Positions 47,564 to 55,053 of a stretch of 64,000 bases of DNA are shown here, piece after piece. Made by a program: the position numbers and the translations under genes. Under the pieces are notes generated by a model, which worked only from the letters and a program-made list of their open reading frames with translations, had not been told where the DNA came from and searched no databases. This DNA is from Bdellovibrionota bacterium (GTDB lineage: Bacteria > Bdellovibrionota_G > JALEGL01 > DATDPG01), in the NCBI GenBank assembly GCA_035292885.1, contig DATDPG010000164.1, positions 1,386 to 65,385 on the forward strand, given 5' to 3'. Position 1 is the first letter of the stretch; each line of letters opens with the position of its first letter.

Positions 47564-48517
47564 CTAAGGAAGAACTTTTCGGGCGTTTTCGACCAGCATT
47601 TTTTGTTTGGCCTCTTCCGAAAGCGGAAGGGACTCGAACACCGCAAGATTCTCCGCCATATCGGGGACGCCGGGACCCGGCCAGTCCGTGCCGTAGAGAA
47701 CCTTGTCCGCGATCTCCTCCAGGCGTGGGAAATAGGAGAGCAGCGACTTCGGAGGTATGCCGGAAATGTCCATGAAGAAATTGGGGTGTCGCCGGACCAG
47801 AAAGAAACAGGTGTTCATCCAAAGCGGCCGGCCGCCGTGGGCCAGCACCACGCGGAGGTTCGGAAAATCAACGCCGATGTCGTCGCAGGTCATGGGATCT
47901 CCATACTTGTTCCTCGCGCCCGGGAAAATCGACGTCCCGGTATGGATCATGACCGGAACGCGATATTCTTCCGCCTTCCGGTAGATCACTCCAAGAGCGT
48001 GAAGACCGCCGCGGTATTCGTTCGGGAACACCAGCTGATGCGGCGGATGGATTTTGATCATCCGGATTCCCAGATCACCGCAAAGTTTGTCCATCAGATC
48101 TTGCGGGGCCGGGGAAAGGCGCGGGTGCACCGAGCCGACAGCCAAGAGCCGCGCCGGAGAGACCGAACAGAACTTTGAAACCCACGAATTCACGTCGTCG
48201 GTGAATCCCATGATGTCGGGACTCACGTAATTGACGACGCACACACGATCGATACCGACGCGGTCGATGTGATCGATAAACTCCAGTGGATCTTCTCCGT
48301 AGCGGGCGATTAAATCGGCATCGGGTCTCTTTTGCCGCATTTTCTGCAGCGCTTCCGGTTTGAACATGTACCAGGGCTGAACATGCACATGAAAATCGGT
48401 AATCCCCTCCCGTCGCCGCACCTGCGCTCCCGAAGCTTTCCGTTTCGGATTTGTCGTCTCTTTTTTCGCTTTCGTCACGCGTGGGAACAGAATAAAACAA
48501 TCGCCGATGAAAGCCAT
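47564..48517 (-). CDS. amidohydrolase-2 (PF04909-type) TIM-barrel metal-dependent hydrolase
   Basis: DFHVHV HxH motif, later His/Asp ligands (MIHTGTS, VLAHGG, GTDWP). ATG at 48517, or alternative GTG near 48477. Confidence 0.75.
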   Translation of the reverse strand: MAFIGDCFILFPRVTKAKKETTNPKRKASGAQVRRREGITDFHVHVQPWYMFKPEALQKMRQKRPDADLIARYGEDPLEFIDHIDRVGIDRVCVVNYVSPDIMGFTDDVNSWVSKFCSVSPARLLAVGSVHPRLSPAPQDLMDKLCGDLGIRMIKIHPPHQLVFPNEYRGGLHALGVIYRKAEEYRVPVMIHTGTSIFPGARNKYGDPMTCDDIGVDFPNLRVVLAHGGRPLWMNTCFFLVRRHPNFFMDISGIPPKSLLSYFPRLEEIADKVLYGTDWPGPGVPDMAENLAVFESLPLSEEAKQKMLVENARKVLP

Positions 48518-49538
48518 TCAATATTCGCGGCACGGCGGGCCGGAAGTCCTTGCCTACGTCGATCTTCCGGACCCAGTGCCCGGCCCGGGGCAGGCCGTTG
48601 TGCGTCTCAAGGCCGCCGGAATCAATCACATCGACATTCACATCCGCCGAGGCATTCCCGGAATGAAAACTCCCCTCCCCCACATCCCGGGTTGTGACGG
48701 CTCCGGGATCGTCGACGCGGTCGGCGCGGGCGTCACGAACGTTGAAGCGGGTCAGCGAGTGACCATCAATCCAGGGACCTCGTGTGGCGTATGCGAGCAG
48801 TGCGGCGCCGGAGAAAAGAGCCTATGTCACCGCTACCAAATTCTGGGAGAGCACGGCAACGGCACATATGCCGAAAAAATCGCGATCCCGGCCGTCAATG
48901 CTTTGCCGATCCCGGATTCCGTATCCTTTGAAACGGCGGCCGCGGCGCCATTGGCCTATCTAACGGCTTGGAGCATGGTCGTGTCGAAGGCTCGTGTACG
49001 AGCGGGAGATGCCGTGCTCGTCATGAGCGCCGGCTCTGGCGTCAGTACGGCGGCCATCCAAATCTGCAAGATGCTGGGCGCGAAGGTCTTTGCCACCGCG
49101 AGTACGCCGGAGAAGGCCGACCGGGCCAAAAAGGACCCGGGCGCCGACGTCGTCATCGATTACACGACGACGCCGATCGACAAAGAGATTCGAACCCTGA
49201 CGGAAAAACGGGGCGTCGACGTCATCATCGACCATGTCGGGGGTGAACAGTGGCTTCCGATGCTTCGTTCTCTTCGGAAGGGTGGAACGCTCGTCACGTG
49301 CGGAGCGACGGCCGGTTTCGAGCCGAAAGAAGATCTCCGCCAAATCTTTTTTCGGCAGCTCCGGATTTTGGGCTCGACGATGGGAAACGACGCGGAACTG
49401 CATTCAGTCCTGAAACTTGTGTTCGAAGGCCGACTGAAACCAATCATTGATAAGAGTTTCCCCCTTAAACAGGCACCCGAAGCTCATCGCCGAATGGAAG
49501 AGCGGAAGTCTTTCGGAAAAATCGTGTTGATCCCGTAG
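48507..49538 (+). CDS. quinone oxidoreductase / Zn-ADH (MDR family)
   Basis: ATG at 48507 (MKAIQYSRHGGPEVL). GSGVSTAAIQICK cofactor motif. Confidence 0.85.
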   Translation: MKAIQYSRHGGPEVLAYVDLPDPVPGPGQAVVRLKAAGINHIDIHIRRGIPGMKTPLPHIPGCDGSGIVDAVGAGVTNVEAGQRVTINPGTSCGVCEQCGAGEKSLCHRYQILGEHGNGTYAEKIAIPAVNALPIPDSVSFETAAAAPLAYLTAWSMVVSKARVRAGDAVLVMSAGSGVSTAAIQICKMLGAKVFATASTPEKADRAKKDPGADVVIDYTTTPIDKEIRTLTEKRGVDVIIDHVGGEQWLPMLRSLRKGGTLVTCGATAGFEPKEDLRQIFFRQLRILGSTMGNDAELHSVLKLVFEGRLKPIIDKSFPLKQAPEAHRRMEERKSFGKIVLIP

Positions 49539-49560
49539 ATCCGGTTTCCGCTACCGATAC
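49481..49560. repeat. 80-bp direct repeat (copy 1), 3' end of the MDR gene plus 22 bp beyond its stop
   Basis: agctcatcgccgaatggaagagcggaagtctttcggaaaaatcgtgttgatcccgtagatccggtttccgctaccgatac. 78/80 identical to 53262-53341. Confidence 0.75.
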
Positions 49561-49596
49561 GGATCTGGCGAAAGAGATCTCCTGCGAAGTTCGGCC

Positions 49597-50280
49597 TTAC
49601 CGGGATTTGGATTTTCCGGATTGTTTTACGCTGTTCGCGGGCTTGGTTAGTGTCCTGCTGCAGCAAATGGCGGTGGTCACCGTCGTCAATTTTCCGACGT
49701 GCGCTTGCACCGAAGCGATCGCATGGTTGATCGCGGTCGTCGTGGCGGCATCAACGCTCCCAATCCGAGAATTCGCGTTTTGCAACGCCGCTATCAGATT
49801 GTTGGCCGCCGTCACGGCGGTTCCCGACGTATTCGCAAAGGTTTGTGTGAGATAATTTTCAGATTTGCATTGAACGATCGTGGGATCGTTGAACGTGTCA
49901 TTTATCTCGTCGCTTACCGCCTCGGAGAGGTCCCCATCCGAATCGGTGTCTTGTTCGCTGTAGTCCGCGATCACGTTGTTTGCCGCATCCAGGGCGTCCT
50001 CCGCATACTCGCTTTCGCTGAACTCGCTGTTATGCGTATTGTCCGATTCCAAAAGCGCCAATTCATTTAGGATATCGGTCGACGTAGCCGTGGATTCGCT
50101 TATAACATCCGCCGCCTGAAGCGTCAGATCGTCGATGGCGTCCTGAGTGAGGTTCGGACATGGCTCCTGTGCCTGGGCGCCAGAGAGCGTCAACAGAAAT
50201 CCGACGCTGCACGCGATGGACGCTGCGGATGGTAGGCGTTTTCCTCTAGTCGCTTTCCGATTTTTCGCAAATGGGTTCAT
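49597..50280 (-). CDS. secreted acidic protein, hypothetical
   Basis: Signal peptide (LTLSGAQAQE). Asp/Glu/Ser-rich middle. 227 aa. Downstream of the 907-aa gene in the same operon. Confidence 0.4.
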   Translation of the reverse strand: MNPFAKNRKATRGKRLPSAASIACSVGFLLTLSGAQAQEPCPNLTQDAIDDLTLQAADVISESTATSTDILNELALLESDNTHNSEFSESEYAEDALDAANNVIADYSEQDTDSDGDLSEAVSDEINDTFNDPTIVQCKSENYLTQTFANTSGTAVTAANNLIAALQNANSRIGSVDAATTTAINHAIASVQAHVGKLTTVTTAICCSRTLTKPANSVKQSGKSKSR

Positions 50281-50296
50281 CTTTCAATCCTCCGAT

Positions 50297-53020
50297 CTAG
50301 ATGTTGCAACGACAATATTGGAAAGTATCTTTGCAGCCCGCCTTGCAGGACGCTTTGGCGTCTTTGCATTGCTGTTTGCATGCTTGTTTGGTGTCCTTGC
50401 ACGTTTGCTTGCAATCCCGCTTGGTTTGTCGGCAGGTCTGTTTGCACTCCCGTTTGTCCTGTCTACACTCCCTCCGGCACTTTCTGCGCTGCGACCCCGT
50501 GTACTGATCGCAGTTGGCGTAGCATGTGTCTTTGGTATTTACGCATGAAGTGGAGCAGCTCGCCTTTTGTGTTTCACAGGTTTGAACGCACAGACCTTTC
50601 ACAGTCTTGCAGTCGCTCTTGCAGGACTGGAACGAGTCTCTGCACCCCGTTCGGCAGGTGTGGCGATTCGGCTTACAACTTTGTTTCTGTTGGCGGTACG
50701 CGCGTTTCCGATCTTTTTTGGATACGTACGCTTGAATGCCGGAAAGATCCGATGGGGCCGTTGCCACAGGGCCGGTCCGAGGTCCGATACTTCGTTCCCA
50801 CATACGAATGAATTTCTCCGATGAATTTTCGATGTTCGTCGTGTCGATTCCGAAATTGTCGAGCTGATGTACCAGATCCGGGAGGAGCCCCTCGTGGCCG
50901 AGACCCAGGATATCGAACTCGGTCCCGACGCCGTTAAAGGACCGTTTGCATTCCGCTCGAGCCTGACAGCGGCTTTCTCTCCGGATACCGCTTCCGGAGC
51001 AGGGATCGGTTTTTCCATACGTCTCGCAGGCGTCGGTGTTTCCATACCGCGGGCGGGTCTGTGTGATGAAACCGTTAAGGTCCGTGGCGAAAGCGATGTC
51101 GACGTTTAATCCGTTGCGCCCCAAGGCATACGCTTGCGCAAATGATTTAGCGGATCCGTGACAGTCGTTCGGAACCAAGGCTGGCTGATAGTGAAGAACT
51201 TCTTCATTAGCCGTTCGAAGGCCGAAAATTCCTCCCGTCTCCTTCACAATGTCTACGATGTTCGCGGGTGTCGTTTTCTCTTCCAACTGCTTTTTTGGTG
51301 TCATGATCTCGCGGAAGTGACCGTGGGACATGAAGAGGGGGTAATAGTTTCTCGCGACGGAGATGTTATAGATTTCGTTCACAGCGTTCTCGGATACATG
51401 GGAGAGATCGATGAGCATCCCGAGATTCATCATCTCGTTGACCAGGGCGACACCGTCCGCCGTAAGGCCCTTTACGTTCTTGCAACTTGAGTCAAGATCA
51501 AAACCGAAGGGATATCGATCCGAACAGTCTGTTTCGATGTGACACGTGTCCATGAATTCGCCGATGAAGAAAACGGTGTGATGAGGGGCCGCGCCTGAAA
51601 ACTGATTGTCGAATTGGTGCACCGGCTGAACCGATCGAACGCCCAGGTCGTAAAAACGACGGAGCTCAGCCATATAGTCGGGCGCGCCTTCGAACAGGCG
51701 GGAAGCTTCAATGGCCAGGATGATCGCGAGTTTTCCCTCATGAATGATCCGCCGCGCATCTTGCGGTGTGAGCGCAATCTCGGCCCATGGGTGATTTTGA
51801 ACAAAGTTGTGCGCCATGTTGATCTCTTGTTCGACGGCGAACATCTCATCGCAGAAGGGGTTGAATAGCGTCGGCGGGTTCAGATTACACAAAAAAGCGT
51901 TATCGACGGCTGACATGACCATTAACGAAAGTCCCCGGTCGTGCGCCTGCTTTAACCACCCCTCCCAAACTTGCTGGTGAGCCGAGACATCCCAACGGGG
52001 CCAGCCGGTATACGTCGGATAGCCGAACGTTCGCAAAAGGTGAAAGCCTGTGTCTTTCCCCAAAATTTCGGAAAGTACGAAGTCCAGCACGTGGATTAAA
52101 ATCGTTGTCGCGTGAGCGCACGGATTGAGCGCTGTCAGACGCTCCAAGAACATTCGACCATGGCTAAAACCGTCGCATGGCGCGAGAGCGATATCCTCGG
52201 GTCCAGCGGCGTTTCCCCAAAGCCAGTTCCCGCCGAAGGCGAGTTCGGAAAACGTGTGAATGTGCGTATCGGCAAACCCAGGGACCGGACTCAGCGCGGC
52301 CGCTTGGTTCGACAGGGGGACGCGAAAGATCAGGTACTCTTTGTGATTAAACCCGGGATAGAATGGAGCCGACGCGTGGCTGGTGTCGTTTCCACTGTTA
52401 AACCAAATCCAATGTGCGTTGGATGAAATGGCTGGGACTACTGGAAACGGGCTCTCCACGGGAAAGGTTCCGTTGTTTACGCCCCCGATCGTCGGGATTC
52501 GCCATTTGAGATTCGTATCCGCGTCGCCGGCGATCGAGCGAATGTCCGCCGAACCGGGCCCCTGTGAGGGAAACGGCTGGTCAAGATCAATGAGAGAGGG
52601 GACCACCTGGACCAATGGGTCCCCGCTCAAAATCATCTTACGGTTGACCTGAATTTGAAACAGGAGGCCCTGCGTGCCGACATCGTCGCCCCAAGCGGTA
52701 ATGTAAAGGAAAGGATCGTTGGTAACGATGGACGCCGCGGCGGCGCTCCCGGCCGACGCATTTCCGCCGCTGACCGGCGTGATCGATCCATTGGCCGATT
52801 GGGTGAACAAGGCGAACGAGTCGAAGCCCATGACTTGAGTCTGAACATTCAGCCCCCCTCCGCCGCCAGGCCCGTTAGGGTTATGCTTCTGGGTGTTGCC
52901 AGCGACCGTCGCGGCACGGACGCCGAGACCGTTCGTGAAGGCGAATGCGACGATTAACCATCCAAGAAGGGGTAGAAAAACGCCCACGAGCGGTCTCTTC
53001 GGTTGCCGAGGAGGGCGCAT
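50297..53020 (-). CDS. large secreted protein: N-terminal unknown domain, central putative metal-dependent hydrolase-like region, C-terminal Cys/Lys 11-residue ladder (~13 repeats of C-x3-C-x6)
   Basis: Signal peptide. ...CKPNRHTCRTGCRDSFQSCKSDCKTVKGLCVQTC...CKQTCRQTKRDCKQTCKDTKQACKQQCKDAKASCKAGCKDT tail with strict 4/7 Cys spacing. Confidence 0.5.
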   Translation of the reverse strand: MRPPRQPKRPLVGVFLPLLGWLIVAFAFTNGLGVRAATVAGNTQKHNPNGPGGGGGLNVQTQVMGFDSFALFTQSANGSITPVSGGNASAGSAAAASIVTNDPFLYITAWGDDVGTQGLLFQIQVNRKMILSGDPLVQVVPSLIDLDQPFPSQGPGSADIRSIAGDADTNLKWRIPTIGGVNNGTFPVESPFPVVPAISSNAHWIWFNSGNDTSHASAPFYPGFNHKEYLIFRVPLSNQAAALSPVPGFADTHIHTFSELAFGGNWLWGNAAGPEDIALAPCDGFSHGRMFLERLTALNPCAHATTILIHVLDFVLSEILGKDTGFHLLRTFGYPTYTGWPRWDVSAHQQVWEGWLKQAHDRGLSLMVMSAVDNAFLCNLNPPTLFNPFCDEMFAVEQEINMAHNFVQNHPWAEIALTPQDARRIIHEGKLAIILAIEASRLFEGAPDYMAELRRFYDLGVRSVQPVHQFDNQFSGAAPHHTVFFIGEFMDTCHIETDCSDRYPFGFDLDSSCKNVKGLTADGVALVNEMMNLGMLIDLSHVSENAVNEIYNISVARNYYPLFMSHGHFREIMTPKKQLEEKTTPANIVDIVKETGGIFGLRTANEEVLHYQPALVPNDCHGSAKSFAQAYALGRNGLNVDIAFATDLNGFITQTRPRYGNTDACETYGKTDPCSGSGIRRESRCQARAECKRSFNGVGTEFDILGLGHEGLLPDLVHQLDNFGIDTTNIENSSEKFIRMWERSIGPRTGPVATAPSDLSGIQAYVSKKDRKRAYRQQKQSCKPNRHTCRTGCRDSFQSCKSDCKTVKGLCVQTCETQKASCSTSCVNTKDTCYANCDQYTGSQRRKCRRECRQDKRECKQTCRQTKRDCKQTCKDTKQACKQQCKDAKASCKAGCKDTFQYCRCNI

Positions 53021-53261
53021 CGGCCTCCCATGTCAAACATGACGCTCCTAGTCAAGGTAAACCTCCTAGGAAATTTCAAGAATCCGGCGGTTGTATTGGG
53101 GCGAGAATGGGTGTGGCCGAGGAGATCGATGGACTCCGCGATGTCCGAGCGATTTCGGTCAAGGTGCGAAACCACACGCTTTGGATTCGCATCGATATCC
53201 GCTTCGAGGGGCGTCTAAAAGTCTTCCTCGATCAGACGTTCGCGTTGAAAGACGCCGCGAA

Positions 53262-53341
53262 AGCTCATCGCCGAATTGAAGAGCGGAAGTCTTTCGGAAA
53301 AATCGTGTTGATCCCGTAGATCCGGTTCCCGCTACCGATAC
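53262..53341. repeat. 80-bp direct repeat (copy 2), duplicated MDR 3' end
   Basis: 78/80 identity to 49481-49560. Upstream ~65 nt still encode ...FEGRLKVFLDQTFALKDAAKAHRRIEERKSFGKIVLIP, a diverged copy of the MDR C-terminus. Abuts the relE stop. Confidence 0.75.
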
Positions 53342-53589
53342 ACTTCACTCCGATGGGCGATCTTCACGACGTCCACAACTTTGCGGGCGTCATCGACAGC
53401 ATAGACGACTCGATAAGGTCCTTGTCTCAGCCGGTATTTTTCCTCGCCTGAAAGCTTCTGCGAGCCGGGCGGCCGGGGATTCAAAGATAAGCCTTCGATT
53501 CGCGCGACGATCTGTTGAACAATTTTCTTTGGAAAACCCTCGAGCTCCTTGAGCGCCGATGGCTTGATGGAGAGACTATAATTTTCCAC
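53332..53589 (-). CDS. relE: RelE/ParE-family toxin
   Basis: 85 aa; ...YRLRQGPYRVVYAVDDARKVVDVVKIAHR typical of RelE/StbE. Confidence 0.75.
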   Translation of the reverse strand: MENYSLSIKPSALKELEGFPKKIVQQIVARIEGLSLNPRPPGSQKLSGEEKYRLRQGPYRVVYAVDDARKVVDVVKIAHRSEVYR

Positions 53590-53806
53590 TCGAGCGCAGT
53601 CTCTTCAACGCATCTTCAAACGGGAGGCTCTTCTCTTTTTTGCGCTCGTCGAACGAGGCCAGATCCTCAAGGTCCTCGGAAAGATTGAGCCGAATCACTT
53701 CGTTCACAATCTCCGACACCGATTTTTCAATCTCGGCGGCCTTGAGTTTCAGGGCTTTATGAAGGTCGCGATCAAAGTAAATGGTCGTTCTCGAAGTGTT
53801 TGCCAT
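53576..53806 (-). CDS. ribbon-helix-helix (CopG/Arc-type) antitoxin
   Basis: TTIYFDRDLHKALKLKAAEIEKSVSEIVNEVI RHH pattern. Overlaps relE by 14 nt. Confidence 0.7.
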   Translation of the reverse strand: MANTSRTTIYFDRDLHKALKLKAAEIEKSVSEIVNEVIRLNLSEDLEDLASFDERKKEKSLPFEDALKRLRSSGKL

Positions 53807-53874
53807 TAAAATTCATTAAAGCATCATAGCCTTATAACGTCAAGACGCTTGAATGTCTTAAGAATATCCCGGCC

Positions 53875-55053
53875 TTAGCGCTCAAACAAAGCGGCGATCC
53901 CCATTCCGCCGCTCACGCACAACGTGGCGATTCCGCGCTTGGCGTTCAGAATTTCCATCTCGTGAAGAAGCGTTGTGACGATACGAGCCCCCGTAGCGCC
54001 GATCGGATGACCGAGGGCGATGGCCCCGCCGGAGACATTTACCTTCGACAAATCGAGCTCGAGATGTTTGGCGCAGGCCAAAACCTGTCCCGCAAAGGCT
54101 TCGTTGAGTTCAATGAGGTCGATTTCTCTGAGCTTTAACTGCGTCTTGGCCAGAAGTTTCTCGACGGCCGAGACCGGACCGATCCCCATGATCGACGGAT
54201 CAACGCCGACCGTGGCGTGGGCCACAAGACGAGCCATCGGCTTCAGACCTAACTTCTTAGCCTTTTCCGCCGTAGTCACGATGCATGCCGCTGCGCCATC
54301 CGTAATTCCGGAGGAATTCCCGGCATGGACCGAACCGTCCTTGACGAAGACCGGGGGAAGTTTCGCCATCGATTCCACAGTGGAGTCCGGCCGGGGATGT
54401 TCATCCTTCGTGACCATCTTTATCCCGCCCTTTGCGGCGACTTCGACCGGCGCGATTTCCCGATTCCAACGGCCCGACTGATCCGCGGCGAGCCATTTTT
54501 TCTGGCTTTCGGCGGCATACGCATCTTGATCCGCCCGAGTGATCCCTTCTTGGCGGACCAGCTTCTCCGCAGTCTCCCCCATCACCATTCCGCAGAGCGG
54601 GCAAAGAAATCCATCGCGGTACATTCCGTCGACGACTTCCGAATGGCCCATCCGGTAACCCCATCGGGCGCCCGTGAGAAGGTACGGCGTGTTCGACATC
54701 GATTCCGTTCCGCCGGCTAAAACCACTTCAGCCTCGCCGGTTTGAATCGACTGAGCCGCGTTTACAATGGCCCGAAGTCCGGAGGCACAAGCCTGATTGA
54801 CCGTATACGCCGGAACCGCATCGGATAAGCCTGCGAGACGAACAATTCGGCGGGCGGTATTTGGGCCACCTCCCGCCTGTCGGGCATGGCCGAAAATACA
54901 GAGGTTTATTTTGTCAGGCGTGATTCCGGAAACGGAAATTGTGCTGCATCCGACACTTCCGCCTAGTTGCGCTGCAGACAGGGAGGCCAAACCCCCGCCG
55001 AACTTACCGATCGGCGTTCGGCCTGCCCCGACAATGACGATATCGTGGGTCAC
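53875..55053 (-). CDS. acetyl-CoA C-acetyltransferase (thiolase II)
   Basis: Thiolase active-site regions (NQACASGL, GNSSGITDGAAA, CVSGGMGIA). Confidence 0.9.
   Translation of the reverse strand: MTHDIVIVGAGRTPIGKFGGGLASLSAAQLGGSVGCSTISVSGITPDKINLCIFGHARQAGGGPNTARRIVRLAGLSDAVPAYTVNQACASGLRAIVNAAQSIQTGEAEVVLAGGTESMSNTPYLLTGARWGYRMGHSEVVDGMYRDGFLCPLCGMVMGETAEKLVRQEGITRADQDAYAAESQKKWLAADQSGRWNREIAPVEVAAKGGIKMVTKDEHPRPDSTVESMAKLPPVFVKDGSVHAGNSSGITDGAAACIVTTAEKAKKLGLKPMARLVAHATVGVDPSIMGIGPVSAVEKLLAKTQLKLREIDLIELNEAFAGQVLACAKHLELDLSKVNVSGGAIALGHPIGATGARIVTTLLHEMEILNAKRGIATLCVSGGMGIAALFER

What the first reader, a model, noticed from the sequence alone, without database searches (positions are those of the whole stretch)
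50297..50780. C-terminal Cys/Lys ladder with strict 11-residue periodicity in a 907-aa secreted protein
The last ~150 residues contain ~26 cysteines spaced alternately 4 and 7 apart (C-x3-C-x6, about 13 repeats) and embedded in Lys/Arg/Thr/Gln. Examples are CKQTCRQTKRDCKQTCKDTKQACKQQCKDAKASCKAGCKDT. The DNA is correspondingly repetitive. Such a basic cysteine ladder is unlike common bacterial repeat domains. It could be a metal-binding or disulfide-stapled stalk, or a nucleic-acid/polyanion binding tail.
Basis: seen in the sequence. Interest (0 to 1): 0.65.

Follow-up and report, generated by a model that had tools for sequence, protein, structure and literature searches.

The report
Disulfide-laddered helical hairpin on secreted dipeptidase
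The cysteine-rich tail of this exported bacterial enzyme is most likely one long two-helix hairpin pinned together by 11 disulfide rungs. This rigid, positively charged rod has a design that recurs unannotated in well over a hundred other exported microbial proteins.

Summary
The ladder is real and far beyond chance, but it is a mirror image, not a tandem repeat. Residues 782-905 of the 907-aa ORF (50297-53020, minus strand) hold 23 Cys, not about 26. The gaps run 7,4 x5, then 11, then 4,7 x5, so 22 Cys form 11 pairs whose positions all sum to 1685.

AlphaFold2 gives two long helices (768-837 and 843-906) joined by a turn exactly at that symmetry centre (tail pLDDT 87-91). Two orthologs at about 40% identity keep 11+11 Cys with turn gaps of 13 and 14.

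A profile of the three tails finds 206 proteins, mostly with signal-peptide-like N-termini, on M19, FG-GAP, Laminin_G_3, PKD or PilY1 hosts or alone. Where a cysteine is missing on one arm, its mirror partner is missing too. This favours independent disulfide rungs over Cys4 metal sites.

Pfam, NCBIfam and PDB sequences have nothing over the ladder. The body is an M19-type zinc dipeptidase.

Best reading: an 8-10 nm disulfide-stapled rod without a hydrophobic core, net charge +18. It works like an extended alpha-hairpinin or twin-CX3C motif. Its role as a polyanion or partner anchor is inferred only. An acidic secreted protein is encoded just downstream. No disulfide has been shown experimentally.

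The parts
50297..53020 (-). Gene for the 907-aa exported M19-type dipeptidase with the Cys-ladder tail. The stop codon is at 50297-50299. NCBI annotates a GTG start 11 codons downstream, giving 896 aa.
   Evidence: ORF list. The 100%-identical protein P0001 is named 'MAG TPA: membrane dipeptidase [Bdellovibrionota bacterium]'.
52910..53020 (-). Residues 1-37: signal-peptide-like N-terminus with a basic n-region, a hydrophobic core and VRA|A. There is no twin-arginine motif and no lipobox Cys.
   Evidence: Read from the sequence. Passes the hydrophobic-segment heuristic. Not verified with a dedicated predictor.
52289..52909 (-). Residues 38-244: N-terminal region of unknown fold, with a Gly run and some beta strands.
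   Evidence: No Pfam hit. pLDDT below 50 in the full-length model.
50786..52288 (-). Residues 245-745: M19 / amidohydrolase-type catalytic TIM barrel.
   Evidence: Pfam PF01244, 88 bits, residues 391-606. High-pLDDT model. Foldseek probability 1.0 to DPEP1, Sco3058, GliJ and PvdM. H253, H255, E438, H541 and H566 are invariant across 39 homologs.
50510..50719 (-). Residues 768-837: arm 1 of the hairpin, a continuous helix. Its 11 Cys are at 782, 789, 793, 800, 804, 811, 815, 822, 826, 833 and 837 (C-x6-C-x3 register).
   Evidence: Cys positions. AF2 helix 9-78 of the tail model, equal to residues 768-837. H768-781 plus H783-837 in the full-length model.
50480..50509 (-). Residues 838-847 (DQYTGSQRRK): the segment between the innermost Cys pair. 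DSSP places the actual turn at 838-842, and G842 is invariant in the three orthologs.
   Evidence: Non-helical residues 79-83 of the tail model and 838-842 of the full model. Turn gaps of 11, 13 and 14 in the orthologs, and the invariant Gly.
50303..50479 (-). Residues 848-906: arm 2 of the hairpin. Its 11 Cys are at 848, 852, 859, 863, 870, 874, 881, 885, 892, 896 and 903 (C-x3-C-x6 register). Each mirrors an arm-1 Cys, and every pair sums to 1685. There is also an unpaired 23rd Cys at 905 (bases 50306-50308).
   Evidence: Cys positions. AF2 helix 84-147 of the tail model and H843-906 of the full model. A terminal extra Cys also occurs in P0002 (CAC) and P0003 (C-x4-C).
49597..50280 (-). Downstream, probably co-transcribed gene 16 nt after the stop codon. 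It encodes a 227-aa orphan with a signal-peptide-like N-terminus and pI 4.4. It is a possible partner of the cationic rod, and its membership in the system is tentative.
   Evidence: ORF. pI and composition. Only itself is found in 5.8 billion proteins. Same-strand genes of about 200 aa with acidic products (pI 4.4) follow the ladder-type M19 genes of P0002 and P0085, and a 203-aa gene follows that of P0003. No such gene follows P0063 or P0064, nor three Dickkopf-type orthologs.

Best explanation
The last ~140 residues fold into a single long antiparallel alpha-helical hairpin. Arm 1 is residues 768-837, the turn is at 838-842, and arm 2 is residues 843-906.

On each helix the cysteines recur at 4/7 spacing (11 residues = 3 turns), so they form one stripe. 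The two stripes face each other. This gives 11 nested cross-arm pairs: 837-848, 833-852, 826-859, 822-863, 815-870, 811-874, 804-881, 800-885, 793-892, 789-896 and 782-903.

After export into the oxidising periplasmic or extracellular space, each pair is proposed to form a disulfide rung. The interface otherwise contains only small Thr/Ser/Gly/Ala residues, and only about 10% of the tail is hydrophobic. The ladder, not a hydrophobic core, would therefore hold the fold together.

The result is a stiff rod of roughly 8-10 nm, probably resistant to proteases, projecting from an M19-type zinc dipeptidase. Its outward-facing positions are Lys/Arg-rich (net +18). The most likely job of the rod in this protein is to dock the enzyme onto a polyanionic surface. 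Candidates are the cell envelope, LPS, matrix polymers or eDNA. The acidic secreted protein encoded immediately downstream is another candidate partner.

Shown here: the symmetry, the helical hairpin prediction, the conservation of the pairing pattern, the recurrence as a module, and the enzyme family.
Inferred: export, disulfide formation, stiffness and the docking role.
For: 1. Symmetry. All 11 Cys pairs sum to 1685. 20 of 22 gaps are 4 or 7. 20,000 shuffles never exceed 8 mirror pairs.

2. Structure prediction. AF2 on the tail alone, without an alignment, gives pLDDT 88.3 with helices 768-837 and 843-906 and a turn at the symmetry centre. The full-length model built with 39 homologs gives the same hairpin at pLDDT about 87-91.

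3. Orthologs. P0002 and P0003 are 38-44% identical overall and 33-41% in the tail. Both keep exactly 11+11 Cys in the same mirrored spacing, while the turn gap varies (11, 13, 14). The arms are constrained and the turn is not.

4. Wider class. A profile of the three tails finds 206 proteins at E<=1e-3 among 1.84 billion representatives. Among arms that are irregular and not palindromic, 144 candidate turns are perfectly mirrored and 1 is perfectly translational. That is 19 distinct mirrored spacing patterns against 1.

5. Pairwise loss. Inside the detected ladders, 1201 Cys pairs are matched and only 52 Cys are unmatched. Vacant lattice sites (spacings of 11 or 15) occur on both arms together. 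Single rungs are therefore gained and lost as cross-arm pairs, as expected for independent disulfides.

6. Export. 128 of 148 listed hits have a signal-peptide-like N-terminus. The host domains are extracytoplasmic ones: M19, FG-GAP, Laminin_G_3, PKD and the PilY1 propeller.

7. Interface register. Cys sits at two of the 11 positions. Thr/Ser/Gly/Ala lie next to the stripe and Lys/Arg point outward.

8. Idealised geometry. With 11/3 periodicity all 11 rungs keep an equal CA-CA distance of 4.3-5.7 A at helix-axis distances of 8.5-10 A.

9. Module swap. Orthologous M19 enzymes carry Dickkopf_N-like disulfide-rich modules at the same C-terminal position. That position therefore hosts interchangeable extracellular Cys-rich modules.

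10. Charge. M19-linked ladders carry net +15 to +29 in six of seven cases. Acidic, exported-looking proteins (pI 4.4) are encoded directly downstream in three loci (window, P0002, P0085), and a same-size gene follows P0003.
Against: - No disulfide has been observed. I could not read model coordinates, so SG-SG distances in the AF2 models were not checked.
- DsbA oxidises cysteines mainly in sequence order. Ten of the 11 proposed pairs are non-consecutive, so folding would need isomerisation or hairpin formation before oxidation.
- The tail has an odd number of Cys (23), and so does the protein (35). At least one thiol is free or bonded elsewhere.
- The mirror statistics come from homologous, non-independent proteins. 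The detection favours mirrored solutions.
- The docking role is weakly supported. Ladders of the wider class range from net -35 to +45, so charge is not part of the scaffold.
- The acidic downstream gene is absent from two of six ladder-type M19 loci.
- The downstream proteins share no significant sequence similarity with one another.
Confidence: 0.65

Rival explanations
1. Metal-binding tail. In this reading the facing Cys stripes stay reduced and bind metal. One version has five Zn(Cys)4 sites, each built from a C-x3-C on each arm, as reduced twin-CX3C small Tim proteins can do. Another has chains of Cu(I)-thiolate, as in the Cys-lined helical bundles of copper storage proteins (Csp), possibly after two hairpins pair into a four-helix bundle. 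The tail would then store or deliver metal for the binuclear zinc enzyme, or sequester copper.
For: - There are 22 Cys on helical faces pointing at each other.
- The enzyme it is fused to is a zinc hydrolase.
- The tail has no hydrophobic core, so some ligand or cross-link must hold it together.
Against: - In relatives, cysteines disappear one rung at a time and always together with the mirror partner. Some family members have only one Cys per 11 residues (P0067, P0082). That leaves Cys2 half-sites, which suits independent disulfides but not Cys4 sites.
- Many hosts are not metalloenzymes: PKD, Laminin_G_3 and PilY1.
- Export by a Sec-type signal peptide into an oxidising compartment disfavours 22 free thiols.
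- The tail has no Pfam hit of any kind above threshold at E<=10, and its only three weak matches are unrelated families. There is no PDB sequence hit at E<=1.
- AF2 predicts a two-helix hairpin, not a bundle. Oligomers were not modelled.
Confidence: 0.15
2. Released cationic effector. In this reading the hairpin is cleaved off, or acts in place, as an alpha-hairpinin-like antimicrobial, membrane-active or protease-inhibiting peptide. A predatory bacterium would use it against prey. The acidic downstream protein would serve as its neutralising or immunity partner.
For: - The tip C833-x3-C837-x10-C848-x3-C852 fits the alpha-hairpinin 4C motif C-X3-C-X4-20-C-X3-C. Alpha-hairpinins are disulfide-stapled helix-loop-helix peptides with antimicrobial or trypsin-inhibitor activity (PMC11591084).
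- The rod carries +18 net charge.
- The source is a Bdellovibrionota MAG.
- An acidic, exported-looking orphan is encoded 16 nt downstream.
Against: - The rod is polar, not amphipathic, with only about 10% hydrophobic residues.
- No processing site is evident.
- The same scaffold occurs with acidic or neutral surfaces and inside large adhesin-like proteins. Toxicity is therefore not a property of the scaffold.
- The downstream gene is missing in two ladder-type loci.
Confidence: 0.08
3. Artefact. The periodicity would come from a wrong reading frame, a frameshift, low-complexity DNA or a misassembled repeat.
For: - The antisense strand also yields ORFs with periodic Cys.
- The only identical database entry, P0001, comes from a single contig, so there is no independent resequencing.
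Against: - The frame is continuous with a well-conserved M19 domain.
- The same 11+11 ladder follows the same domain in two orthologs from other assemblies, one on a 33%-GC contig.
- The DNA is not a tandem repeat.
- AF2 is confident.
- 206 profile hits exist.
Confidence: 0.01

Closest known systems
Alpha-hairpinins (plant helix-loop-helix peptides, motif C-X3-C-Xn-C-X3-C; PMC11591084)
   Same: Both have two antiparallel helices joined by a loop and stapled by nested disulfides (C1-C4, C2-C3) between C-x3-C motifs. The hairpin tip here (C833...C852) fits the 4C motif exactly. In both, the cysteines are almost the only conserved residues.
   Different: Alpha-hairpinins are short plant peptides with 2-3 disulfides, released from precursors. 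Here there are 11 predicted rungs continued outward with alternating x6/x3 spacers (an 11-residue period). The hairpin is a 140-residue domain fused to a bacterial enzyme. No homology is demonstrable.
Twin-CX3C small Tim proteins and twin-CX9C CHCH proteins of the mitochondrial intermembrane space (PMC4571295, PMC11832770)
   Same: These are helical hairpins whose two arms carry mirrored Cys motifs that form two nested disulfides in an oxidising compartment. The fold depends on oxidation. From my own knowledge, reduced forms can bind zinc.
   Different: They have two rungs only, are eukaryotic and depend on Mia40 for oxidation. The tail's Pfam scan at E<=10 returned only three weak, unrelated families and no Tim10 or CHCH family. 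The ladder here is equivalent to five twin-CX3C units stacked in register plus one extra pair.
Copper storage proteins Csp1/Csp3 (Cys-lined four-helix bundles; PMC9484137, PMC12510493)
   Same: Many cysteines sit on helices at helical-face spacing and point into the helix-helix interface. Some Csps are periplasmic.
   Different: Csps are four-helix bundles with reduced thiolates binding Cu(I), and their Cys pattern is not mirror-symmetric. Here there is no Pfam or PDB sequence match. A two-helix hairpin is predicted. Pairwise co-loss of cysteines points to disulfides.
Dickkopf_N-like cysteine-rich C-terminal modules of orthologous Myxococcota M19 enzymes (PF04706 hits)
   Same: They occupy the same position, the C-terminus after the conserved ...MWER... 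end of the catalytic domain. They have a similar number of Cys in the last 150 residues (22-24) and a presumably extracellular, disulfide-rich nature.
   Different: The Cys spacing is completely different (6, 5, 3, 7, 12...), with no 4/7 ladder hits. The window protein has no PF04706 match. This looks like a module swap, not homology.
Long antiparallel coiled-coil hairpins (chemoreceptor cytoplasmic domain, colicin, SMC arm, YscO)
   Same: The overall shape is the same. These are the best Foldseek matches to the tail model.
   Different: All matches are insignificant (E>=0.33, TM 0.3-0.6). Those hairpins have hydrophobic cores and no cysteine ladder.
Peptidase family M19 (renal/membrane dipeptidase, Sco3058, GliJ, PvdM), for the body of the protein
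   Same: Pfam PF01244 scores above the gathering threshold. The TIM-barrel model matches solved M19 structures with probability 1.0. His/Glu/His/His residues are invariant.
   Different: The catalytic domain is much longer, with insertions. The first metal motif is H-x-H rather than the H-x-D of DPEP1 (the DPEP1 motif is from my own knowledge). There is an extra N-terminal region of about 200 residues and the ladder tail. Identity to solved structures is only 13-16%.

Membership tests
Peptidase M19 (membrane dipeptidase), whole protein | Match to the family profile above the curated threshold | tested here: met
   PF01244 at 88 bits against a cut-off of 26, E 8e-25, residues 391-606. PDB sequence hits to M19 dipeptidases at E 1.6e-6 to 1e-3.
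Peptidase M19 (membrane dipeptidase), whole protein | Amidohydrolase-type TIM-barrel fold | tested here: met
   The full-length AF2 model has pLDDT mostly above 90 over residues 245-745. Foldseek gives probability 1.0 and E about 1e-12 to 9h0b_B (DPEP1), 1itq, 3id7, 5lwz and 3b40.
Peptidase M19 (membrane dipeptidase), whole protein | Binuclear zinc ligand set (His/Asp, bridging Glu, His, His) and dipeptidase activity | tested here: inconclusive
   H253, H255, E438, H541 and H566 are invariant in 39 homologs. The first motif is H-x-H, not H-x-D. The residues were not superposed on a solved active site. Activity cannot be tested here.
Alpha-hairpinin | Cys motif C1-X3-C2-X4-20-C3-X3-C4 in a helix-loop-helix | tested here: met
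   C833-x3-C837-x10-C848-x3-C852 lies at the predicted turn. Motif definition from PMC11591084.
Alpha-hairpinin | Short plant peptide with 4-6 Cys and 2-3 disulfides | tested here: not met
   This is a bacterial (Bdellovibrionota MAG) domain of about 140 residues with 23 Cys, fused to a 760-residue enzyme.
Alpha-hairpinin | Nested disulfide connectivity (C1-C4, C2-C3) | not testable with these tools
   It is predicted from the mirror symmetry only. Disulfide mapping is needed.
Twin-CX3C (small Tim) / twin-CX9C (CHCH) | Profile match to the family | tested here: not met
   The Pfam scan of the tail at E<=10 returned only RRF, DUF2390 and Nop25, all far below threshold.
Copper storage protein (Csp) | Profile or sequence match to the Csp family | tested here: not met
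   No Csp-type family appears among the Pfam hits of the tail at E<=10. No NCBIfam hit is near threshold. The tail profile finds nothing in the PDB below E=1.2.
Copper storage protein (Csp) | Four-helix bundle with a Cys-lined core binding Cu(I) | tested here: inconclusive
   The monomer model is a two-helix hairpin. A dimer of hairpins was not modelled. Metal binding is not testable here.
Metallothionein-like Cys cluster | C-x-C / C-x-x-C clusters in a peptide with little regular secondary structure when metal-free | tested here: not met
   The gaps are 4, 7 and 11, with a single C-x-C at the very end. Continuous helices are predicted with confidence.
Dickkopf_N-like Cys-rich module (as in orthologs) | PF04706-type Cys spacing or profile match | tested here: not met
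   Only PF01244 is found in the window protein. The ortholog tails have different spacing and no 4/7 ladder hits.
DNA-level tandem repeat array (variable-number repeat) | Head-to-tail near-identical DNA units | tested here: not met
   TRF finds only a 12-nt x 2.3 repeat, score 40. Lag-33 identity is 44%. The rung number is identical (11) in three divergent orthologs.
Proposed class: hendecad Cys-ladder hairpin (defined here, not a curated family) | Two runs of Cys at 4/7(/11) spacing arranged as mirror images around a gap of about 5-21 residues, in an exported protein | tested here: met
   Window protein: 11 mirror pairs and a turn gap of 11. The same design occurs in 197 ladders in 143 proteins among the profile hits. 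128 of 148 hits have a signal-peptide-like N-terminus.

The most novel reading that the evidence does not exclude
The tail would be a member of a previously unrecognised, widespread class of extracytoplasmic domain. The class is a helical hairpin without a hydrophobic core whose only glue is a ladder of interhelical disulfides at 11-residue periodicity.

Rung number would set the rod length like a ruler. Observed examples range from about 4 rungs to about 35 rungs (roughly 27 nm) in P0071. The surface would be free to evolve any charge.

In this operon the cationic 11-rung rod and the acidic secreted protein encoded downstream would form a charge-matched pair that targets or masks a secreted dipeptidase of a predatory bacterium.
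Probability: 0.3. Interest if true: 0.78.

Novelty: new variant of a known kind. Interest (0 to 1): 0.62.

Why it matters
If the rungs are real disulfides, this is a natural protein rod built on a principle known so far only from two- or three-rung mini-hairpins (alpha-hairpinins, small Tims, CHCH) and from engineered 'cysteine zippers'.

The principle is a helix pair with essentially no hydrophobic core, held by up to dozens of evenly spaced covalent staples. Such rods would be very stable. Their length would be programmable through rung number and their surface freely re-designable. That is attractive for protein engineering.

It would also explain how exported bacterial enzymes and adhesins (M19 peptidases, PKD, LamG and PilY1 proteins) gain rigid projections. 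It would give a name and a model to well over a hundred 'hypothetical' exported proteins that Pfam and NCBIfam currently leave blank.

The folding problem is interesting in its own right. Eleven nested, non-consecutive disulfides must form in a Dsb-type periplasm.

For this particular protein the biological role remains inferred.

Tried and rejected
- Word-indexed homolog search with the tail alone found nothing, not even the protein itself. It was replaced by the exhaustive profile search.
- Foldseek of the tail model against the PDB gave only generic coiled-coil hairpins, best E 0.33.
- Pfam and NCBIfam scans of the tail and of 17 other ladder proteins found no family over any ladder.
- A PDB sequence-profile search gave nothing below E=1.2.
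- The genome-contig scan with the tail profile returned only two loci: an Acidobacteriota MAG (the P0063 contig) and the P0002 contig. Taxonomic breadth is therefore poorly sampled.
- Eight literature searches covered helical hairpin + CX3C, cysteine ladder, hendecad + cysteine, CX3CX6C, disulfide ladder, cysteine zipper, Balbiani ring 3 and Csp. None found a description of a natural multi-rung ladder hairpin.
- Downstream acidic protein: pairwise BLAST and MAFFT between the three available copies were not significant. The homolog search found only the protein itself. Pfam found nothing above threshold. Homology among these 'partners' is unproven, and the link rests on position, size, the signal-like N-terminus and pI.
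- Tandem-repeat and frameshift artefact readings were rejected.
- Rfam found nothing in 49000-54500. The promoter and terminator scan was no better than shuffles.
- Recent horizontal acquisition of the gene pair was rejected. GC and GC3 equal those of the neighbouring genes.

Full report
**1. The observation**

The minus-strand ORF 50297..53020 encodes 907 residues in one uninterrupted frame. Its last 126 residues hold 23 cysteines at positions 782-905. The Cys-Cys gaps read 7,4,7,4,7,4,7,4,7,4 | 11 | 4,7,4,7,4,7,4,7,4,7 | 2.

The ladder is therefore real and lies at the stated coordinates. The Cys span 50306-50677 and the helices span 50303-50719. It is far beyond chance. In 20,000 shuffles of the tail, at most 11 gaps were 4 or 7, against 20 observed. 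At most 8 Cys pairs were mirror-related, against 11 observed.

- There are 23 Cys, not about 26.
- There are 11 hendecads, not about 13.
- The DNA is not meaningfully repetitive. TRF finds only a 12-nt x 2.3 repeat. The repeat finder sees only 12-14-nt imperfect repeats. Identity at a 33-nt lag is 44%, against 23-26% at lags 3, 6, 30 and 36.
- The second half of the tail does not repeat the first half. It mirrors it.

**2. The key feature is mirror symmetry**

Arm 1 uses C-x6-C-x3 and arm 2 uses C-x3-C-x6. Every one of the 11 pairs (837/848, 833/852... 782/903) sums to 1685.

The apparent 'strict 11-residue periodicity' across the whole tail exists only because the central gap happens to be 11 here. 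In the two orthologs that share the tail, the arms are identical in spacing (7,4 x5 and 4,7 x5) but the central gap is 13 (P0002, 890 aa) and 14 (P0003, 692 aa). These orthologs are 38-44% identical to the window protein. A constrained pair of arms around an unconstrained middle is the signature of a hairpin.

**3. Structure prediction**

AlphaFold2 on residues 760-907 alone, without an alignment, gives mean pLDDT 88.3. It predicts two uninterrupted helices (768-837 and 843-906) and a five-residue turn (DQYTG) exactly at the symmetry centre.

The full-length model built with 39 homologs reproduces the same hairpin at pLDDT about 87-91.

At 11 residues per 3 turns, all Cys of an arm lie within 33 degrees of one another, forming one stripe. 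The positions next to the stripe are Thr/Ser/Gly/Ala, and the remaining positions are dominated by Lys/Arg. Only about 10% of the tail is hydrophobic. There is thus no conventional core.

An idealised two-helix model shows that 11/3 periodicity keeps all 11 rungs at the same CA-CA distance, 4.3-5.7 A for helix-axis distances of 8.5-10 A. Undistorted 3.6-residue helices would drift out of reach after about four rungs. A gentle right-handed twist is therefore implied. That last step is inference from coiled-coil theory. I could not read the model coordinates, so the SG-SG distances of the AF2 models remain unchecked.

**4. It is one member of a larger, unannotated class**

A profile of the three tails searched against 1.84 billion representative proteins returned 206 hits at E<=1e-3. 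Many show the same design with other rung numbers:

| Protein | Ladder | Context |
|---|---|---|
| P0059 | 7+7 alternations | M19 enzyme |
| P0061 | 8+8 | Laminin_G_3 protein |
| P0076 | 9+9 | end of a 3086-aa protein |
| P0081 | 11+11 | 333-aa protein, no Pfam domain |
| P0189 | 12+12 | in front of a PilY1 beta-propeller |
| P0071 | about 35 rungs | 31 of 34 outward spacings identical on the two arms |

The most numerous group is a set of small proteins of about 170-240 aa with signal-peptide-like N-termini and the five-rung pattern 4,7,11,4 | turn | 4,11,7,4.

Host domains are M19, FG-GAP+M19, Laminin_G_3, PKD, PilY1 or none. 128 of the 148 listed hits have a signal-peptide-like N-terminus by a crude heuristic.

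No Pfam or NCBIfam model covers the ladder in any of the proteins tested. The profile finds nothing in PDB sequences below E=1.2. Foldseek of the tail model finds only generic long coiled-coil hairpins at E>=0.33. Eight full-text literature searches found no description of a natural multi-rung ladder of this kind.

**5. Disulfides or metal?**

The family provides an internal test. Where the 4/7 lattice has a hole (a spacing of 11 or 15), the hole is on both arms at the mirrored position.

- Among arms that are irregular and non-palindromic, 144 candidate turns are perfectly mirrored and 1 is perfectly translational. That is 19 distinct mirrored patterns against 1.
- Inside detected ladders, 1201 pairs are matched and only 52 Cys are unmatched. 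There are 252 arm spacings of 11 or 15, which are positions vacant on both arms.
- Some relatives retain only one Cys per hendecad (P0067, P0082).

Loss of single rungs as cross-arm pairs is what independent disulfides predict. Zn(Cys)4 sites built from two C-x3-C motifs would be destroyed by such losses.

Three further points agree with disulfides. The signal-like N-termini suggest export. The hosts are extracytoplasmic. Orthologous M19 enzymes carry a different disulfide-rich module (Dickkopf_N-like) at the same C-terminal position.

Caveats:
- The proteins compared are related, so counts are not independent events.
- The detection favours mirrored solutions.
- Digonal Cu(I) between pairs is not excluded.
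- Ten of the 11 pairs are non-consecutive and would need isomerisation in a Dsb-type periplasm.
- The tail has an odd, 23rd Cys (C905). An extra terminal Cys also occurs in P0002 (C-x-C) and P0003 (C-x4-C), and its partner is unknown.

**6. The rest of the protein and the locus**

Residues 245-745 are an M19 / amidohydrolase-type TIM barrel. Pfam PF01244 scores 88 bits. Foldseek gives probability 1.0 to DPEP1, Sco3058, GliJ and PvdM. H253, H255, E438, H541 and H566 are invariant.

Residues 38-244 have no family and a low-confidence model.

The identical protein is annotated as a membrane dipeptidase of a Bdellovibrionota MAG. A ladder-type relative, P0063, lies in an Acidobacteriota MAG.

Sixteen nucleotides downstream lies a 227-aa orphan with a signal-peptide-like N-terminus and pI 4.4. 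Same-strand genes of about 200 aa follow four of six ladder-type M19 genes examined (window, P0002, P0003, P0085). None follows the three Dickkopf-type orthologs examined. Where the sequence is available (window, P0002 and P0085 loci) the products have pI 4.37-4.44. However, they share no significant sequence similarity with one another.

M19-linked ladders are cationic (+15 to +29) in six of seven cases. Ladders on other hosts range from -35 to +45. Charge is therefore a lineage-specific decoration, not part of the scaffold.

**7. Mechanism proposed**

- Shown: a mirror-symmetric Cys lattice, a confidently predicted helix-turn-helix, conservation of the pairing pattern, recurrence as a module in proteins with signal-like N-termini, and the M19 identity of the body.
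- Inferred with good support: after Sec export the two arms zip into a hairpin locked by 11 nested disulfides, giving a stiff rod of 8-10 nm without a hydrophobic core.
- Inferred with weak support: in this enzyme the Lys/Arg-covered rod docks the dipeptidase on a polyanionic surface or on the acidic downstream protein.

Because a hairpin returns the chain to its origin, the module is a projecting spike rather than a spacer between domains. This also fits its internal position in the PilY1-type protein.

**8. Comparison with known systems**

It works like an alpha-hairpinin or a twin-CX3C/CHCH hairpin, in which nested disulfides join two antiparallel helices. The hairpin tip even satisfies the alpha-hairpinin 4C motif.

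It is not a member of those families. It has 11 rungs against 2-3. It is a bacterial enzyme domain, not a plant peptide or a mitochondrial protein. There is no profile match.

It resembles copper storage proteins only in having Cys on helical faces. It fails every sequence and architecture test I could run for them. The engineered 'cysteine zipper' of RSV F vaccines (PMC4476739) is an artificial analogue.

I therefore rate it a new variant of a known kind: an extended, hendecad-periodic, multi-rung version that appears to be a widespread but uncurated bacterial module.

**9. Verdict**

'Tandem repeat' is wrong. Metal binding remains a minority possibility.

Confidence in the hairpin is about 0.85, in disulfide rungs about 0.7, and in the docking role about 0.35. 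Interest is 0.62. It is structurally striking and broadly distributed, but everything beyond the sequence pattern is prediction.

Noticed in passing
window 49422-49560 and 53203-53341: A 139-nt direct repeat (82% identical, 3781 nt apart) brackets exactly the two-gene unit of acidic orphan plus M19-ladder gene. One copy is the 3' end of the intact Zn-ADH-like gene 48507-49538(+). The other is a relic ADH C-terminus inside ORF 52945-53319(+) (ADH_zinc_N_2 positions 100-134). It looks like an old insertion or duplication footprint. GC and GC3 of the unit match the neighbouring genes, so it is not recent.
   Followed up: partly
window 53332-53806 (-): A type II toxin-antitoxin pair lies just upstream of the M19 gene. 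The 85-aa ParE-family toxin is at 53332-53589 (PF05016, E 6e-12). The overlapping 76-aa protein at 53576-53806 gives only weak, sub-threshold ribbon-helix-helix hits (RHH_1 17.9 bits against a cut-off of 20.5), so its antitoxin role is inferred mainly from position. Local GC is 0.50, against 0.557 for the window.
   Followed up: partly
window 49597-50280 (-): A 227-aa orphan with a signal-peptide-like N-terminus and pI 4.4 is encoded 16 nt after the ladder gene. It has no homolog other than itself among 5.8 billion proteins and no family. Genes of similar size (196-203 aa) occupy the same position after three other ladder-type M19 genes. The two whose sequence is available are also acidic (pI 4.4) but show no detectable sequence similarity.
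   Followed up: partly
P0071 residues 465-841 (JGI metagenome, 'hypothetical protein'): A giant version of the ladder. The two arms have about 185 residues each, and 31 of 34 outward Cys spacings are identical on both. That is about 35 rungs and roughly 27 nm if helical, around an irregular centre CHCVTICAPWPWDDECTTQCTC.
   Followed up: partly
P0189 residues ~630-839: A 12+12 ladder with three mirrored vacant rungs is inserted upstream of a PilY1 (type IV pilus tip adhesin) beta-propeller. It is seen on 25 contigs, the longest 298 kb.
   Followed up: no
P0062 (KAK2963145.1, Blattamonas nauphoetae): A eukaryotic (oxymonad) protein named 'Balbiani ring protein 3-like'. It has 77 Cys at 4/7/11 spacing arranged as several successive small mirrored ladders. 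The design is therefore not restricted to bacteria.
   Followed up: no
P0083, P0088, P0108, P0112 and many others among the hits: The most numerous group of hits is a family of small proteins (about 170-240 aa) with signal-peptide-like N-termini and a five-rung hairpin (4,7,11,4 | turn | 4,11,7,4). They are usually Lys/Arg-rich. The two members tested (P0088, P0108) have no Pfam or NCBIfam family.
   Followed up: partly
orthologs P0004, P0008, P0016, P0023, P0027, P0028 (Myxococcota and others): Orthologous M19 enzymes end in one to several Dickkopf_N-like cysteine-rich modules instead of the ladder. PF04706 itself is recorded only for P0023 among these six. The others share the same Cys spacing (6, 5, 3, 7, 12...). 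Most remaining orthologs end in a single shorter Cys-rich module. This looks like C-terminal module swapping within one enzyme family.
   Followed up: partly
window 52289-52909 (-), residues 38-244: This N-terminal region has a Gly run (GPGGGGG), no family match and pLDDT below 50. The corresponding region of ortholog P0002 gives a weak, sub-threshold DNRLRE-domain hit (24 bits against a cut-off of 34).
   Followed up: no
window 52256-52264 (-), residues 253-255: The first metal-binding motif of this M19 subfamily is H-x-H (H253, H255, invariant in 39 homologs). From my own knowledge, renal dipeptidase has H-x-D there. This is closer to the general amidohydrolase pattern.
   Followed up: no
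window 50147-50811 (+): Several plus-strand ORFs (133, 68 and 143 aa) overlap the tail in antisense. Two of them also show periodic Cys, because the sense strand is periodic. They are shadow ORFs, not genes.
   Followed up: yes
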